Part shown: in pieces, positions 4,164 through 60,792 of the stretch | Layout of the letters: every line of letters begins with the position of its first letter | Position numbering within the stretch: position 1 is the first letter of the stretch | Origin: Octopus sinensis | Lineage: Eukaryota | Assembly (NCBI RefSeq): GCF_006345805.1 | Contig: NC_043024.1 | Coordinates: forward strand, 12,896,001-12,960,000 | DNA: 64,000 nt | Direction: 5' to 3' | Position numbers and translations under genes: made by a program | The notes under the pieces: generated by a model | Seen by the model: the letters and a program-made list of their open reading frames with translations, nothing else | Databases searched by the model: none | What the model was told of the DNA's origin: nothing

Positions 4164-4648
4164 TTTCTTTTACATGTTTCAGTCGTTTAACTGCGGCCAT
4201 GCAGGTGCATTGCCTTTAGTTGAGCAAATCTACCCCAGGATTTATTCTTTGTAACCCTAGTACTTATTCTATCGGTTACTTTTGCCGAACCGTAAAGTTA
4301 CGGGTACGTAAACACACCAGCATCGGTTGTCAAGTGATATTGGGGACAAACACAGATGCACAAATATATACACACATACATAATACACACACACACACAC
4401 ACATATATATGCATGTATATATATATATATATATTATATATAATATATTATATGCATGTATATAAATATATATATATATATATAAATGACGGGCTTCTTT
4501 CAGTTTCCCTCAACCAAAACCTCTCACTAGGCTTTGGTAGGCTCGAGGCTATAGTAGAAGACACTTGCTCGAGGTGCTACGCAGTGGATTGAACCCAGAA
4601 CCATGTGGCTGGCAACCAAGTTACTTACCACACAGCCACTCCTGCACC
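4164..4648 (-). mobile_element. tRNA-derived SINE family A, full length with internal microsatellite
   Basis: Reverse complement of the 11338-11757 element. Confidence 0.9.
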
Positions 4649-19302: not shown

Positions 19303-19597
19303 TTTGTGTGTGTGTGTGAGTGTGCACGCGCGAGTGTATGTGTGCGTGTTCAGATTAAGTAAAGACTATTTCGAAGTGTTGGTTGAATTTCCATTTATGA
19401 CAGAACTCTTTGTATCATATATCAATATATATATATAAAAGGAAAAATATACAATGTAGGAAAATTATGGAAACTTTTCTACCAGTAGCCTAGCATACAG
19501 AAAATAGTCAACAGACTACAGCCGACCAAAGCCTTGTGAGTGGATTATGTAGACGGAAATTATATTGATGGCGAGCTGGCAGAAACGTTAGCGCGCC

Positions 19598-19697
19598 NNN
19601 NNNNNNNNNNNNNNNNNNNNNNNNNNNNNNNNNNNNNNNNNNNNNNNNNNNNNNNNNNNNNNNNNNNNNNNNNNNNNNNNNNNNNNNNNNNNNNNNN
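19598..19697. other. Assembly gap (100 N)
   Basis: Run of N that truncates a SINE B head at 19569-19597. Confidence 1.
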
Positions 19698-20718
19698 ATG
19701 TATGTATGCGTATATGCTTATATATATGTATGTATCTATATATTTTATATATTGTATTATAATAGGTAAATATATATGTATATATATATATATATATAAA
19801 GAGACAGATATTTGTGCATACGTATATAGACATACGTACATATATATGTATACATATATAGACATACGTACAAACGTATGTATAAATATATATTCATATA
19901 TATATTTATATAAATATATTATATATATATATAAATTTCACACGCACACATCGATCTCTGTCCCATACATTCATAATGAATACATATACGTATATACAAA
20001 CACATATGTATATATACCTACACGCACACACACAGAAACAGGCAAACATATATACATACATATATATATATATATATTTATTTATATATATATGTATATA
20101 TATACACATACATATAATAGACACAGTGAGTCTTGTACGTCCGTTCCCCACATTCTCCTCTTCATTATTTAGCTGTATTGATTCCCCAACCAAACCTAAT
20201 ATAATCAGCCACCCATGTCATCGGATATTTCATTTTCTTTTCTTCCATTGATGCTACACACTAGAAGGGATGGCATTTCTAGAGAATAGCTGCTCTAAAT
20301 ATGCACCAGTTATCATAACACTTCCTCAGATTTTGACATCATCGCTGTTTTGCTATAGAAGGATTTTTTGCTTTGGTATTATTTTTTTATAGTATTTTTT
20401 TTGGAGAAAGTAATATAACAATATAAGCTTTCGCTGCCATATTTTTGTAGTTTTTTTCTTTCTTTTAAGCGTGTGAGTCTGTTTGAGTGAAAATGACAGC
20501 GAGAGGAATGACAAGGGAGACAAAGCAGTTATTAGAGGACGACCATACATAGCTCTCGTATACTGAGATACATTGCTATATACATGCATATACGGACGTA
20601 TGTGTGTGTGTGTATGTGTGTGTATTTACATGTATATATATGTCTGTATATATATATATATATATATGTGCATGATTGTATATATATATATATGTATATA
20701 AAATTATAAATGCATGTT

Positions 20719-21096: not shown

Positions 21097-21157
<61 letters not shown>

Positions 21158-21390
21158 TTTATTTAAACAGCAGAAAAATTCAACAAAACCTGTTACTCTG
21201 AGTTTCCCGTTGCCGTTCATCGGACAGTTTTTGCTAGATTCTAATCAAAAACTGTCCGATGAACGGCAACGGGAAACTCATAACAGGTTTTGTTGAATTT
21301 TCTGCTGCTTTAAATAAGGCATTTACTCTATACCACTGGTATTTGAGTACTCTTTTTTCCACCTTGTTTCACATTTATGTGTTTACCTCC

Positions 21391-21392
<2 letters not shown>
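21158..21392 (+). mobile_element. Fold-back PLE pLTR remnant with two hammerhead copies
   Basis: Inverted arms ~21159-21233 and 21246-21317, unique tail to 21392, both ends in (TA)n; same family as 48393-48663. Confidence 0.8.
21190..21227 (-). ncRNA. Minimal type-I hammerhead ribozyme (U4C variant)
   Basis: CTGT CCGATGA ACG-GCAA-CGG GAAA CTC-A-GAG TA ACAG. Confidence 0.7.
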
Positions 21393-47872: not shown

Positions 47873-48220
47873 TATTATTATCATTACAAAATGCAAAAAC
47901 GAGGCTATATATAACGAAGAATTTCAACAAGAGATGAACAATAAATAAAACGAAAACAAGAATTTATTGGTTGGCAACGAATTGCTCCCATTAAAGCAAT
48001 AATTGTTGGTGAGTAGAATTTCTCAGCTTTAAAGGATTCAAATGTAAAACTGAAAACATGACGTAATTACACACACACACATACATACAAACATACATAC
48101 ATACATGCTTATATAGATATATTATATATATATATATATATATTATATATGTATGTATGTATGTATATGCCTCATATAATATATATATATATGCTTGTGT
48201 ATATATTGAATATATATATA

Positions 48221-48273
<53 letters not shown>

Positions 48274-48496
48274 ATATATATATATGCATATATATATATG
48301 TACGCATTCATACATATATAAGTATATATGGATATATAAGTATAAATATATGTATATATATATGCTCGTATATATATATATAGATAGATAGGCCGGAGTA
48401 AACACATAAATGTGAAACAAGGTGGAAAAAAGAGTACTCAAATACCAGTGGTAGAGTAATATGCTTTATTTTAAGCAGCAGAAAATTCAACAAAAT

Positions 48497-48534
48497 CTGT
48501 TACTCTGAGTTTCTCGTTGCCGTTCATCAGACAG
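48497..48534 (-). ncRNA. Minimal type-I hammerhead ribozyme
   Basis: CTGT CTGATGA ACG-GCAA-CGA GAAA CTC-A-GAG TA ACAG: complete core, stem I CTGT/ACAG, GUA cleavage triplet. Confidence 0.8.
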
Positions 48535-48592
48535 TTGTTGCTAGAATGGAACTTATATATTAATTAATATATAAGTTCCATTCTAGCAAAAA

Positions 48593-48630
48593 CTGTCTGA
48601 TGAACGGCAACGAGAAACTCAGAGTAACAG
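48593..48630 (+). ncRNA. Minimal type-I hammerhead ribozyme
   Basis: Identical motif on the plus strand. Confidence 0.8.
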
Positions 48631-48689
48631 ATTTTGTTGAATTTTCTGCTGCTTAAAATAAAGTATATAGATAGATAGATATATTCAAA

Positions 48690-48720
<31 letters not shown>

Positions 48721-48849
48721 ATGCATACATATATATATAAGTATATATAGATATGTAGATATAAGTATATAAAAGTATATATACATATAATTATAGAAAA
48801 GTTTATATATATAGAGAGAGAGACAGAGAAAAGTTTATGTATATATATA

Positions 48850-49045
48850 GTTAATCCAAACAGGAAAGCACAAAAAAAAACATCAACGCGAGGATGTGGA
48901 ACAAATATAATATTATTGAACACTCAAGAAAGAAGGAAGATTTAACGTTTCGAGCGGAGCTCTTCGTCGGAAACATAGAAGGAAAGATCCAGAGTAGGGA
49001 AGACAGAGGAAAAAAAAATCGACAACGGTACACACGCGGTCACAT
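48850..49045 (-). mobile_element. PLE pLTR remnant (another family)
   Basis: Unique island between (TA)n tracts containing a hammerhead motif. Confidence 0.6.
48941..48973 (-). ncRNA. Minimal type-I hammerhead motif (U4C, extra A after A9)
   Basis: TTT CCGACGA A GAGC-TCC-GCTC GAAA CG TT AAA. Confidence 0.6.
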
Positions 49046-49086
<41 letters not shown>

Positions 49087-49407
49087 TAATTCTTGTGAAA
49101 GTAAAATTATTGTGTGATTATGTTTTTTAAGATCTAATCCTTCCATCTGCCTGTCTCTTTCATTCAATTTCTGTGTCTCTGTCTCTGTCTGTCTGACTGT
49201 GTATCTCTCTCTCTGTTACGGCCTGGCATTGAAATAGAACCAACCAGCGCCTCGATCCCTAAGATTGAGAACCTGTTGAAGCTATAAGCTGTTATTCAGG
49301 CACTCAAGCACGACTGCAGTGAATCTTACAACACGGACAGCTGTAAAGTAATCAAGGTCTTATGAGAGTTGTCTGTTCCTTTATCATCTCATTGCCTCAT
49401 ATCGTCG

Positions 49408-56480: not shown

Positions 56481-57600
56481 CACATTTAAACATTTATAAA
56501 CATATATGTATACACACACACATATACATATAGGCTTATATATATGGCTATGTGTATATGTAACTAGAAATGTTTACGCGCGCGCACAAACACACACATG
56601 TATATATATATGCAGATATACATAAATGTATACGCGTATCTACTAGACACGCATGTGTTTTATATGGTACGCTGTATTCCTGAAAAAGACACAAAATAGG
56701 CATTCATCATAAAGGTGTTCCGTACACGTTTCCATATAATTAAATAAGTGCAATGACAATGTCTACATGAGAAGTAGAACGGAAATTAAAGAATCCTAAA
56801 TGTATAATACAATGGACAGATACGAATATTACATTTATGTATGGACGGAGAATGGCGGCGTGGTTATGCTGGGCGATTCGTATTACTGAGGACTTGCAAT
56901 GAAACTCACTGCGTACAACCTTGGCGAATGTCTTTGAGAACAGTTTCGTATTAGGATTGAATATATGAAAACTGGGAAACTGGGTGGAAGCCTGATTTAT
57001 GGATTTTACCTGTAATTCACTGGTAAAGTATGTGTCACGTTGGTTATCCACAAGTACACCTGTCTATGTTTCACAAACTGTACATAGCACAAATACGAAT
57101 GTTCTAGCATCCAAAGGGCTTCTTTGAGGGCCTGCGATCATAAAGGTACTTAAAACAATAGAGAAAATATAATACATGTTACCAAGACAAACGCATTCAC
57201 AGCTGGTTAGCGCCCCTCCTAGTTTCTTTCTTTCTCTCTCTCTCTGCACACAAACGCATCATAGCATATAATATGCACTAGCTCCAATTAATTTCATGCA
57301 GCGACATGAAAATAAATACAGCAAGTACACATCATGGCTGGTTTTATGCTTTACACAATAAAACAAGAAAAAAGGGACTCGCCATGTGGTATATTTGAGT
57401 CGAAACGTTACTTGGAAACAAGAGGCTTAAAGCATAAGGTTTCTTGGTTATTTTGTTTTCACAGCATGAAATCAACAATCGCTCGTATTTAAATAGTGTG
57501 GATATCAAATGATATTTATCTCTAAATGGGTGGAATACATTTTATGATGATCCTACAAATAACGGAGCAGAGAATTATATATATATATATATATATATAT

Positions 57601-58650
57601 ATCCTAAAGTGGGAAAATGATTTTGCTCAAGTTAGTGTTGTCCATCTTAGTTCTATCATTAAACGAATTTTATTGGTTTGTCAATCCTTATTTAATGACT
57701 ATGGTTTCCATGCTGCTATATCTAGCGATCTTGTTCTGTCGAAAAACAGAACTTGTGGTCGTTGCACCCACTGCACTGTTTCTGAGCGCTCGGGTGTTAT
57801 CCTTCCTACGATTGTATTTAATTGTAGTAACCTGTTTCTTACTAAATTTTCCGGCCCTATTTTCTTGGTTTCTTCTTTAAGTATTCTGGCTATTAAAGTC
57901 ATTTCTCCTATCCACCCTATTGTTTTTATAGGTTCTCAGGAAATTAGATTCTACTCTAGTATCGTGTGCCGCTAGGATTTGTGTTAAGTTGTTGTTAGCG
58001 GAGAATGCCAGCCTGACATTTTGCCTATCACATATTCAATGGTCTTAATGGTATTCGATTTAGTAAAGTGTTTATCGATTGCATGGAAAAACTTCTTTGA
58101 GATATTGGAAACAATCTGCCTACCGAACACTGCGTTATGCCATAATGTAGTCCACGAATTGTTATTACCTTGGAGATCCCTATTATTATAAGAGGTAGAA
58201 TTGGCAATGAGATGATATTTTATTTTTGATTTGTTGATTGTTCCCAGGCCTGGTACTATTATTCCCATAGATAATATTAGTGTTTGGTTCATTTCTATGC
58301 GTGGAGTGGTTTTTCCAAATCCTAATGTTCTGTTTACTATTATTTGCTATTATTTTCACAACGGAGTTCAGCCATAAATTCTTCCTCGTCTTTATCCTCT
58401 TCGTTATTGTTTAAGTTGCATATTTTGCATTTACATCCTCTTTACCCGTTCCTTACTTCTACCGGTTTTGTTATTTCCTATGAGTCCTTTTTATGAAATT
58501 TTGTCATTGTTTTCTGGGTTGTTAACCGTTATACTTCGGGCCCCATTAATATTTGTATCTATCGTAACTTGGTTCAATGTCTATTTACCAATTTGTCTTT
58601 GTATATCCCGCCTCTTCTTCTAATGTATTCTTCCAATGTTTTCCATCTAT
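57601..58650 (-). pseudogene. Penelope-like element ORF relic (post-RT linker and GIY-YIG C-terminal part)
   Basis: TLWHNAVFGRQIVSNISKKFFHAIDKHF (like IIWFNPPFSxxVxTNIGKxFLxLIDKHF) and IK*GLTNQ*NSFNDRTKMDNTNLSKIIFPL*D (like FKxRxxNHxxSF..TxLSKxIWxLK). Confidence 0.7.
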
Positions 58651-58656
58651 TTTAGA

Positions 58657-58990
58657 CTAGCAGAAATACCCGGCGTTGCCCGAGTTAATGGCTCAGAGAA
58701 TTAACAGTAACATCGCAAATCTCTTTACCTAACTTATAGTTTAATGTTTTCGAAAAACATACTCAGTGAAATTTCGGACGAAGAACACTTTGAAAACCGT
58801 TTTATTTTTCTACTCTTAAGAATAATTTTTGCTTTGTATCCAAATTCCAAACATATGCAACTCCAATTCTGTAAACATCTGTACGCAAATTAAAATCTCT
58901 TCAAATTCTTTTTACTTTCTGCTTAACCGTAATCCTTACTCTAACTCAAAATTGTAATCGTAAGTGATAAATGAAACCGTAACGTTAAAC
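58657..58990 (-). mobile_element. Helitron 3' end (extent uncertain)
   Basis: A-CTAG-CAGAAATACCCGGCGTTGCCCGAG, same terminal architecture as 17715. Confidence 0.6.
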
Positions 58991-60792
58991 TCAAATCGTC
59001 AGCGGAGCGAGAAAGAGCATGATATGAAAGATGTGTGTGTGTGGAGAGAGAGAGAGAGAGAGATTGAAGAGAGAGGGAGAAAGAGAGAACGGCTATTGTA
59101 TTGACGTTACCATTCCACAGCTACTCATATTTGTCGCTTACGCAACTCTGTTCTCCCCTTCCCTGACAGCATTCAGCCTCCCTATGCCAACTCATTTCCC
59201 TCAGACTAACACTCTTGCACCTTTCTCATTTTATCCCAAAATATACCACCCTACCGTTACAATTTTCTAAATTATAAGATATGTTTGCTGATAGTTTAGG
59301 GATGCGGATAGAAATGTTGTTGATTATGGATTTAGTTATATTTTTAGGGTGATTACTACTGAGGTTAATGTATCTGACGTTGTCATTAAGTTGAGGGTGG
59401 GGTTTGAATAGAGCCGTACTATGATCTAAAGTAACTTCCAGGAAATTAACTAAATTTGGCTTTTCCTCAAAAGAGACGGAAAAGACAATGCCTTTGAGAA
59501 TCTTAATTTTTTCTTTTGTATTTTATTTCAACACTGATAAGTTTATTTAAGGTGAACAGAGCATCATCCCTGTATAATTTGGCCCCCTATTTGTGGAAGC
59601 TCCTTATTGATACAGAATAAGATGTGTATCCCTTCTCAGTTGGTTACCTGGGTGGAGTCACTAGATTCCATGGAAATATCGAACTTATGCGGCCTATCCT
59701 TTCTGGTCCAGTACTTTCCCATGAATTCTATAAGGGATTTTCTGGCAGCAAGTATGACGGCTACCTCAACAAAGAACTACTTTTTGCCGTGAGAGATACT
59801 AATCTCCATATTATCTCATCTGGAGTTGGTAACAAGTACAACTAGGCGATTATTCTACCCTCTCAAGAAGTAAAGATCATTCATATATATGTGGGTGGGT
59901 GTGTATATGTGTATGTGTGTACACAAAAATATATATATATATATTATATATGATATAAATTTATAAATATCAGAGATTTACTCAGAAATACATCCATATA
60001 ACTCACGCCGTAAACACACCCACCCACCACTTGCATACACACATAGACACATACAGACACACAAACTCATATATATAAATATAAATAGATAGATTGATAG
60101 AGAGAGAGAAAGAGAGTGTGTGTGTCGTCGTATCACCACATAAATCATATATATTTGATATTTTCGAAGCTAAAAAAAATTAGCTGTGATTGAATAAATA
60201 TCTCCAATATTGGTTTTCGTTCTGTAAATTTCCTCATCCCAATATTTAATTACAAGCTTTTCGAAAACTATAACATAGTAAATTTATATTCTGGCGACCA
60301 GAAGACAGAAGATGAATTGCAATAATGTCTACACTCAAAGTACATGGCCCTCGTTTTTGTTTTAGTACACTTCGTTCTTGAAACAATTTTTTGCACTTAA
60401 TTATTTTGAAATACATTCTTATCAATGCGACAAAATGGCTACGCATTTACGTTTTTCCGATTATCTGGTCCCTGTTGAAAAAAAATAATGTTTGGAAAAC
60501 CAAATAACTTTACAGAACGTTGGCTTTTCTTGTATGGTTATTGTATAAATGCTTTATAAAGAAACATAATGGCCGCAAGAAATGCTTTGGTTTATCATCG
60601 TTACTTCGGGTCTATAACAATGCTTCGTCTGAGCGATGTAATATAATCTTTACTCTTGGTTATATTTAACATTTCTGTATCTATATATGTATATCTACAT
60701 AATCTCTTCTCTTTTACTTGTTTCAGTAATAATGATAACAATAATAATAATAATAATAATAATGATGATGATGATGATAATAATAATGATAA

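What the first reader, a model, noticed from the sequence alone, without database searches (positions are those of the whole stretch)
48464..48663. 200-bp spacerless palindrome with an intact hammerhead ribozyme on each strand
The arms are 100 bp with one mismatch and no loop. Each strand encodes CUGU-CUGAUGA-ACGGCAACGA-GAAA-CUCAGAG-UA/ACAG together with its exact antisense. Transcription in either direction gives a ~100-bp dsRNA hairpin, a likely ADAR or Dicer substrate (relevant if the host is a cephalopod), which would sequester the ribozyme. The DNA could also form a cruciform. The 1-nt loop of stem III implies cleavage as a dimer, as described for PLE minimal hammerheads. Near identity of the arms indicates recent origin or gene conversion.
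Basis: partly seen in the sequence, partly recalled or inferred. Interest (0 to 1): 0.8.

Follow-up and report, generated by a model that had tools for sequence, protein, structure and literature searches.

The report
Head-to-head mini-insertion of Penelope-like retrotransposon
The palindrome is real and is one of several hundred tiny head-to-head insertions left by a young Penelope-like retrotransposon, each likely made when the element's enzyme copied the same short RNA end twice from two different start points into both sides of one DNA cut, which offers a testable answer to how these elements get their inverted shape.

Summary
The palindrome is confirmed (99/100 pairs, no loop), with a minimal type I hammerhead core on each strand. 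It is not a stand-alone RNA gene. Each arm is the 3' end of a young Hydra-clade Penelope-like element (3.35-kb unit; 2,705 exact hammerhead copies), inserted in (TA)n with a 15-bp target duplication. Genome-wide, 492 of 506 short head-to-head pairs have one tailed and one untailed end. Both arms stop at nearly the same place (rho 0.64), mostly at an initiator-like CC|ATT 46 nt upstream of the cut site. Best reading: two cDNAs, primed at two internal RNA starts on opposite strands of one cut, run off a shared RNA 5' end and join at a self-complementary AATT. 164 of 188 arms pass the cut site, so templates were mostly uncleaved. Inverted PLE copies, tails and opposite-strand hammerheads are published; I found no paper with these pairing rules. 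Editing, dicing and cleavage were untestable. The scan's notes held no related finding.

The parts
48377..48391 (.). Left copy of a 15-bp target-site duplication inside a degenerate (TA)n/(TAGA)n array; one extra G at 48392
   Evidence: sequence
48393..48565 (-). Tailed arm: 3' end of the element's pLTR, positions -64 to +108 relative to the hammerhead cut site
48393..48463 (-). 71-nt 'tail' between the two fixed 3' ends (+37 and +108), inferred to lie between two reverse-transcription start sites
   Evidence: analogy to PMC11167929
48497..48534 (-). Minimal type I hammerhead motif, predicted cut after 48501
48543..48549 (-). Initiator-like CCATTCT, A at 48547; family-wide edge of 5' truncation, inferred RNA start
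48562..48565 (.). Self-complementary AATT shared by both arms: the head-to-head junction
48562..48663 (+). Untailed arm: pLTR positions -64 to +37, ending at the fixed short 3' end
48578..48584 (+). Initiator-like CCATTCT, A at 48580 (-46)
48593..48630 (+). Minimal type I hammerhead motif: stem I 4 bp (extendable past one mismatch), core, 2-bp stem II with GCAA loop and A.A closing, near-palindromic stem III; predicted cut after 48626
48664..48678 (.). Right copy of the 15-bp target-site duplication

Best explanation
This is a single short insertion of a young Hydra-clade Penelope-like retrotransposon, made of two 3' ends of the element joined head to head, and it likely arose by twin priming: the element's endonuclease would cut a (TA)n site with a 13-15-nt stagger, each DNA end would prime reverse transcription at a different internal RNA start, and the two cDNAs would be joined through a self-complementary tetramer. 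Shown: family identity, (TA)n target, target duplication, two fixed 3' ends (+37, +108), one of each per insertion, coupled arm lengths, a sharp edge at -46, matching subfamily letters in both arms. Inferred: both cDNAs are copied from one RNA, or RNAs of one donor, whose 5' end lies just upstream of the hammerhead (main start at the initiator-like A at -46; this locus belongs to a minor group ending at -65 to -59). The starts lie only about 80-170 nt from that 5' end, so the usual product is a pair of short run-off cDNAs and hence a mini-palindrome; starts at the downstream pLTR give the long copies. The hammerhead is a passenger that would cut only as a dimer of two RNAs and was mostly uncut in the templates. 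The hairpin RNA is a by-product that would form only on read-through.
For: The arm matches a repeat at 100%; 2,705 exact 30-nt hammerhead copies; 561 loci hold two head-to-head hammerheads within 150 nt. Full elements have a 3.35-kb unit, direct pLTRs, inverted 5' partners and a 727-aa open frame with RT and GIY-YIG-like motifs. End types: tailed+untailed 492, untailed+untailed 4, tailed+tailed 10 (binomial p 7e-126 against 50%); several of the 14 are partial tails or variants on inspection. In the first 100 tailed+untailed loci, 61 of 200 arms end at -46 to -43 and 9 at -60 to -47; an independent sample anchored on the 3' end shows the same edge (17 against 3 of 98), including one-armed copies. 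Older subfamilies join at the same A without the CTAG palindrome (L141, L145, L161, L165, L166). Arm ends are coupled: Spearman 0.64 in 94 loci, 22 of 94 exactly equal against 4% in permutations (0 of 20,000). The untailed arm reaches further 5' in 46 of 100 loci and the tailed arm in 32; a single folded-back cDNA cannot give both without later trimming. Subfamily letters agree between arms in 47 of 48 comparisons, 10 of 10 at a four-state site. 77 junction types in 100 loci point to independent events. In vitro, a Poseidon PLE cuts and extends both strands and starts at two internal sites bounding the tail (PMC11167929).
Against: No raw RNA reads were available, so the -46 start is not shown. 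This locus's arms pass the main edge by 18 nt. Several upstream pLTRs of tandem copies extend far beyond -46, so longer templates exist. PMC11167929 saw no difference in start site between the two strands, which does not by itself predict a strict one-of-each rule. Only 6 of 27 informative flank pairs showed a target duplication, two of them from one tandem locus. Short fold-back insertions do occur at junctions (TTCA before +1). The window's own junction was not bridged by any listed contig.
Confidence: 0.7

Rival explanations
1. Self-priming or fold-back: one cDNA, or an antisense template as proposed for Adineta Penelope, folds on itself at a short palindrome and is copied back, giving the inverted arm.
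For: PMC3846280 proposes this from palindromes at inverted junctions. It explains equal arm ends, matching letters and junctions at self-complementary 4-10-mers. Small fold-back insertions are seen.
Against: A cDNA begun at the untailed start has no tail to copy, and one begun at the tailed start cannot give an untailed arm that reaches further 5'; the latter is seen by 5 nt or more in 37 of 100 loci. In L057 and L088 the tailed arm is only 11-15 nt. The untailed end also terminates full-length copies (L031, L033, L038). Later trimming of the hairpin tip could rescue this model.
Confidence: 0.12
2. The palindrome spreads as a unit, like a MITE or a retrozyme, from a few master copies.
For: The window's exact 40-nt junction occurs at 3 loci with different flanks; one junction type holds 9 of 100 loci.
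Against: 77 junction types in 100 loci; the same AATT junction recurs in three subfamily backgrounds; the ends are the retroelement's two 3' ends and not symmetric terminal repeats.
Confidence: 0.07
3. A long inverted insertion later collapsed by deletion of its centre.
For: Long inverted pairs exist, some nearly symmetric (L032, L110). It could apply to this locus, whose arms pass -46.
Against: It predicts no sharp edge at -46, and one-armed copies with no palindrome end at -46 to -44 as well (L091, L093, L104).
Confidence: 0.06
4. A functional hairpin-RNA or ribozyme-switch locus kept by selection (ADAR or Dicer substrate).
For: Very stable predicted hairpin; opposite-strand joints appear in contigs of runs guessed to be RNA.
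Against: Hundreds of equivalent young insertions with variable junctions; most arms copy the uncut ribozyme; the A/G differences listed at L032 2227, 2256 and 2264 fall where genomic subfamilies differ.
Confidence: 0.03
5. A fold-back read or assembly artefact.
For: No listed contig bridges this exact junction.
Against: Fold-back would mirror the flanks and both ends. Here the ends differ by a 71-nt tail, the flanks carry a direct 15-bp duplication, the arms differ by one base, and head-to-head joints of the family appear in contigs of separate public runs.
Confidence: 0.02

Closest known systems
Hydra clade of C-terminal EN+ Penelope-like elements (Craig et al. 2021, PMC8557442), e.g. [quoted passage not shown]
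   Same: RWK, DKT, YRDDG, C-terminal GIY-YIG-like motifs, CxxC and CxH; (TA)n target; hammerhead in the pLTR. The Hydra-2_Amil hammerhead has the same stem I, stem III arms and cleavage triplet, with TCCATT shortly upstream; several Hydra hammerheads have an unpaired base pair position next to the core; Penelope-13_HM has an inverted 5'-truncated copy.
   Different: A distinct family: four exact motifs were not found in the supplement. Unit 3.35 kb against generally under 3 kb. Tail 71 nt against the 30-40 bp described. Stem II only 2 bp. The second Cys of the CxCX5C linker is replaced in 24 of 26 rows read. Hundreds of mini-palindromes are not described in the passages read.
Minimal hammerheads of metazoan PLEs (Cervera and De la Pena 2014, PMC4209133)
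   Same: Type I, short helix I, palindromic helix III, dimer-dependent and weak in vitro; dual motifs 100-700 bp apart on opposite strands were noted in Schistosoma mansoni.
   Different: No G10.1-C11.1 pair and a much shorter helix II; the paper does not treat the opposite-strand pairs as insertion products with end rules.
Poseidon element of Anolis (PAc) in vitro (Frangieh et al. 2024, PMC11167929)
   Same: Two internal reverse-transcription starts bounding the tail, both strands cut and extended, AT-rich target, predicted dimer, ribozyme cleavage not needed for insertion.
   Different: Different clade; starts lie inside the ORF there and upstream of it here; no one-of-each pairing or inverted products reported in the parts read.
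Penelope elements of Adineta vaga (Arkhipova et al. 2013, PMC3846280)
   Same: [quoted passage not shown]
   Different: Few copies; explained there by self-priming on an antisense template.
LINE-1 twin priming (recalled, not read here)
   Same: Both target ends prime cDNA and the products join by microhomology, giving an inversion.
   Different: In L1 the second primer anneals internally at variable places on one RNA and the two pieces do not overlap; here both starts are fixed and the pieces copy the same stretch.
Non-LTR retrozymes (bioRxiv 10.64898/2026.07.22.740005) and MITEs
   Same: Short non-coding PLE-related units with hammerheads; MITE-like look with inverted arms and a target duplication.
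   Different: Retrozymes are head-to-tail monomers, dimers or multimers; these are head-to-head with unequal ends and varied junctions.

Membership tests
Penelope-like elements (EN+) | Single ORF with RT and C-terminal GIY-YIG endonuclease in the autonomous partner | tested here: met
   727-aa stop-free frame in L032; RT and EN motifs conserved in 29 relatives; the EN region aligns to the Pfam GIY-YIG stretch of P0002. The ORF itself has no Pfam or PDB hit.
Penelope-like elements (EN+) | pLTRs from partial tandems and an inverted 5'-truncated copy | tested here: met
   L031, L032, L033, L038
Penelope-like elements (EN+) | Optional 3' tail at one end | tested here: met
   71-nt tail; 492 of 506 pairs carry it at one end only
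Hydra clade | RWK and DKT motifs; CxxC and CxH around the EN E and N | tested here: met
   against section 11 of PMC8557442
Hydra clade | CxCX5C linker | tested here: inconclusive
   Present in 29 of 29 aligned relatives and in 2 of 26 rows of this family; most rows have F at the second Cys (rows include overlapping loci)
Hydra clade | Insertion into (TA)n | tested here: met
Hydra clade | Placement in an RT phylogeny with the published Hydra proteins | not tested
   The published sequences were seen only as supplement text; likeness judged by eye
Type I minimal hammerhead ribozyme | Core CUGANGA, GAAA, UH with stems I and III | tested here: met
   stem I pairs largely kept in 31 related copies, 82% of cells paired against 33-43% when slid; core and stem III were fixed by the search pattern, so they are no independent support
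Type I minimal hammerhead ribozyme | Stem II closed by G10.1-C11.1 | tested here: not met
   A.A here; mostly A-U, also U.U or A.G in related subfamilies; no Rfam hit
Type I minimal hammerhead ribozyme | Covariation supporting the fold | tested here: inconclusive
   Covariation score reached by 47 of 500 shuffles; percent paired by 268 of 500
Type I minimal hammerhead ribozyme | Self-cleavage after GUA | not testable with these tools
   Indirect only: 7 of 188 arms end at 0 to +2 against 2.7 expected (p 0.02); genome-wide about 38 against about 11 at one control site, confounded by microhomology
Non-LTR retrozyme | Head-to-tail tandem units | tested here: not met
   Head-to-head arrangement
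MITE | Fixed element with symmetric terminal inverted repeats of a DNA transposon | tested here: not met
   Unequal retroelement 3' ends; 77 junction types in 100 loci

The most novel reading that the evidence does not exclude
Penelope-like elements insert through an asymmetric dimer that uses both internal starts of one RNA, one per target strand, so that the inverted partner and the one-sided tail are obligate marks of the normal reaction; from a promoter just upstream of the hammerhead this makes 'strong-stop'-like paired cDNAs that have seeded this genome with hundreds of perfect hairpins, each of which could act as a pair of divergent promoters and as a template for further rounds.
Probability: 0.45. 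Interest if true: 0.7.

Novelty: new variant of a known kind. Interest (0 to 1): 0.5.

Why it matters
How PLEs form their tandem and inverted structures is named as open in PMC8557442. This family gives hundreds of young, short, fully readable products with three sharp rules: one tailed and one untailed end, coupled arm lengths, and a 5' edge at an initiator-like base. Together they turn the in vitro finding of two internal starts into a specific, testable insertion model. The copies also record that the ribozyme had usually not cut its template. As a side effect the genome holds at least 561 near-perfect hairpins that would give double-stranded RNA wherever they are read through. The single locus itself is ordinary within its family.

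Tried and rejected
Rfam at gathering score (window) and at E up to 10 (48000-49200): no hammerhead; only generic miRNA-hairpin matches below their cut-offs. Pfam and PDB searches with the ORF and its alignment: nothing. Sequencing runs: no RNA holder listed on record and no raw reads; contigs cannot show starts, cleavage, strand or editing. A 3' splice site at TTCTAG as cause of the edge: rejected, because arms keep the bases upstream of it and older subfamilies lack the AG. The CTAG palindrome as cause of the edge: rejected, because the edge persists in subfamilies without it and in one-armed copies. Gene conversion: not needed. The greedy walk stopped early on some long arms (compare), so its counts below -47 are upper bounds. 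The first relaxed hammerhead scan printed nothing through a pattern fault and was redone. Six of 100 loci with long unexplained middles were dropped before the correlation. Lunse et al. 2016 was not held. Literature searches that found no description of these pairing rules or of PLE mini-palindrome families: (listings; open-access library only). Look-ups in the scan's notes gave one unrelated note and two blanks.

Full report
Observation. The palindrome is as described: centre 48563|48564, 100-bp arms, one mismatch (48537/48590), no loop; as RNA one hairpin of -161.4 kcal/mol, z -33. Each strand carries a type I minimal hammerhead layout with the cut predicted after 48626 (+) and 48501 (-). 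Rfam does not recognise it. Below, positions are counted from the cut: +1 is the first base after it.

What the arms are. The right arm is 100% identical over 100 nt to 42 listed places of the own genome (40 of 513 candidates scored). The 30-nt ribozyme core occurs 2,705 times exactly and a 32-mer about 120 nt upstream 713 times. Longer copies have a 3.35-kb unit with direct terminal repeats and often an inverted 5' partner. L032 holds a 727-aa stop-free frame with RWK, DKT, YRDDG, GIY-YIG-like, CxxC and CxH motifs conserved in 29 aligned relatives; these are the marks of the Hydra clade in PMC8557442 (section 11). The family is not one of those in that paper's supplement by four exact motifs.

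Anatomy of the insertion. The element has two fixed 3' ends before (TA)n, at +37 and +108, 71 nt apart. In the window the right arm ends at +37 and the left at +108, so the insertion spans 48393-48663. Both arms reach -64 and share the self-complementary AATT at 48562-48565. A 15-bp direct duplication flanks the unit (48377-48391, 48664-48678). Duplications of 13-15 bp were seen in 6 of 27 flank pairs with informative letters, two from one tandem locus; 84 pairs were examined and the rest are plain (TA)n. The same 40-nt junction occurs at two other loci with different flanks.

Family rules. (1) 561 loci hold two head-to-head ribozymes within 150 nt. (2) Among head-to-head pairs with at most 250 nt between the anchors, 492 have one tailed and one untailed end, 4 two untailed, 10 two tailed; some of the 14 are partial tails or variants (8 viewed). 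(3) In the first 100 tailed+untailed loci listed, 61 of 200 arms end at -46 to -43, 9 at -60 to -47, and 16 at -65 to -59; a sample of 98 of the first 100 3'-anchor matches shows the same edge, and summed contig depth in four public runs steps up at the same base (L032:2270). Position -46 is the A of CCATTCT, which fits the initiator consensus YYANWYY (consensus recalled). Older subfamilies join at the same A, the older palindrome in this window does too, and the coral Hydra-2_Amil has TCCATT just upstream of a near-identical ribozyme scaffold. (4) The two arm ends are coupled: rho 0.64 in 94 loci, 22 equal against about 4 expected. (5) Subfamily letters agree between arms in 47 of 48 comparisons; the one exception is this locus's private change; in L262/L263 both arms share one rearrangement. 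(6) 77 junction types in 100 loci, mostly with 0-6 nt overlap or short inserts.

Mechanism. PMC11167929 (parts 1-2 of 4 read) shows that a PLE protein cuts and extends both strands of AT-rich DNA, starts at two internal RNA sites that bound the genomic tail, is predicted to be a dimer, and does not need ribozyme cleavage. Applied here (inference): a staggered cut in (TA)n, one end primed at +37 and the other at +108, both cDNAs running to a shared RNA 5' end, then joined by microhomology. This accounts for all six rules and for the missing loop. Simple fold-back, proposed in PMC3846280 (passages read), fits rules 4-5 but not the 46 of 100 loci in which the untailed arm reaches further 5', unless later trimming is added. 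Spread as a unit fails rule 6. Collapse of long inverted copies does not give the edge. Against my reading: the RNA start is not observed, this locus passes the main edge by 18 nt, longer templates exist, and the in vitro work saw no strand difference in start site.

The ribozyme. Core and cleavage triplet are intact; stem III is a near-palindrome, and the best two-copy fold is the double hammerhead (-27.0 against 2 x -12.4 kcal/mol), in line with PMC4209133 (parts 1-2 of 4 read) and the review PMC6765202 (passages). Stem II is reduced to 2 bp with an A.A closing; 670 related copies have another letter at 11.1, mostly giving A-U in the 100 listed, and U.U is common in published Hydra ribozymes. 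Covariation is inconclusive. 164 of 188 arms extend upstream of the cut, so most templates were uncut; a small excess of ends at the cut (7 of 188, p 0.02; about 38 against about 11 genome-wide, scaled from 30 of 72 and 30 of 36 loci viewed) hints at a cleaved minority of a few percent but is confounded by microhomology and rests on one control site.

A read-through RNA would form the hairpin and bury the ribozyme. RNAs starting at the two initiator-like sites would diverge from the centre and carry one arm each. Editing, dicing and cruciform formation could not be tested: only contigs were available and none is on record as RNA. An artefact is unlikely, given unequal ends, a direct duplication and head-to-head joints of the family in contigs of separate runs, although this exact junction was not bridged.

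Novelty. Inverted PLE partners, one-sided tails, junction palindromes, (TA)n targeting and opposite-strand minimal hammerheads are all published (PMC8557442 passages, section 11 and supplement part 2; PMC3846280; PMC4209133; PMC2377424 passages for the internal promoter). I found no account of the near-obligate end pairing, coupled arm lengths, the promoter-proximal edge or a mini-palindrome class in eight searches of an open-access library; subscription papers such as Evgen'ev and Arkhipova 2005 and Lunse 2016 were not seen and may bear on this. Verdict: new variant of a known kind; interest 0.5, carried by the family-level rules and not by this locus.

Noticed in passing
window 21157-21392: A second, older head-to-head insertion of the same lineage (about 91% to L032): untailed arm left, tailed arm right, junction at -46/-44, U4C-type core, small deletion in the right ribozyme.
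   Followed up: partly
window 48851-49046, ribozyme core at 48970 on the minus strand: 3' end of a different repeat between (TA)n arrays with a loopless minimal hammerhead (4-bp stems I and II, CCGACGA core), likely another PLE family.
   Followed up: no
window about 57600-59810, minus strand: Decayed pieces of a Hydra-like RT/EN frame, 26-50% identity to relatives.
   Followed up: no
L032 about 4170-4200 and other long copies: The second Cys of the CxCX5C linker, present in 29 of 29 relatives, is F in most copies of this young family and C in only 2 of 26 rows, yet the family amplified recently.
   Followed up: partly
L257, L259, L260, L261, L267, L274: Recurring TTCA inserts and repeats just before +1, as expected from a cDNA end near the cut site folding back on itself for a few bases.
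   Followed up: partly
L262 and L263 (C5:69915100, 69917935): Both arms of one inverted insertion carry the same join between the endonuclease region and +1, which points to one rearranged template.
   Followed up: no
tail, window 48393-48463: The tail holds several short palindromes with 0-2-nt loops that could pair between two RNAs; not conserved in every older copy and not tested against shuffles.
   Followed up: partly
L079 and L197: Mini-palindromes repeated in tandem two and three times with their flanks, so local duplication also multiplies them.
   Followed up: no
L031 148-1694: A neighbouring fragment of another Hydra-clade element that resembles Hydra-1_Obim by eye.
   Followed up: no
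window about 19597-19700: A run of N (assembly gap) seen in a translated frame.
   Followed up: no
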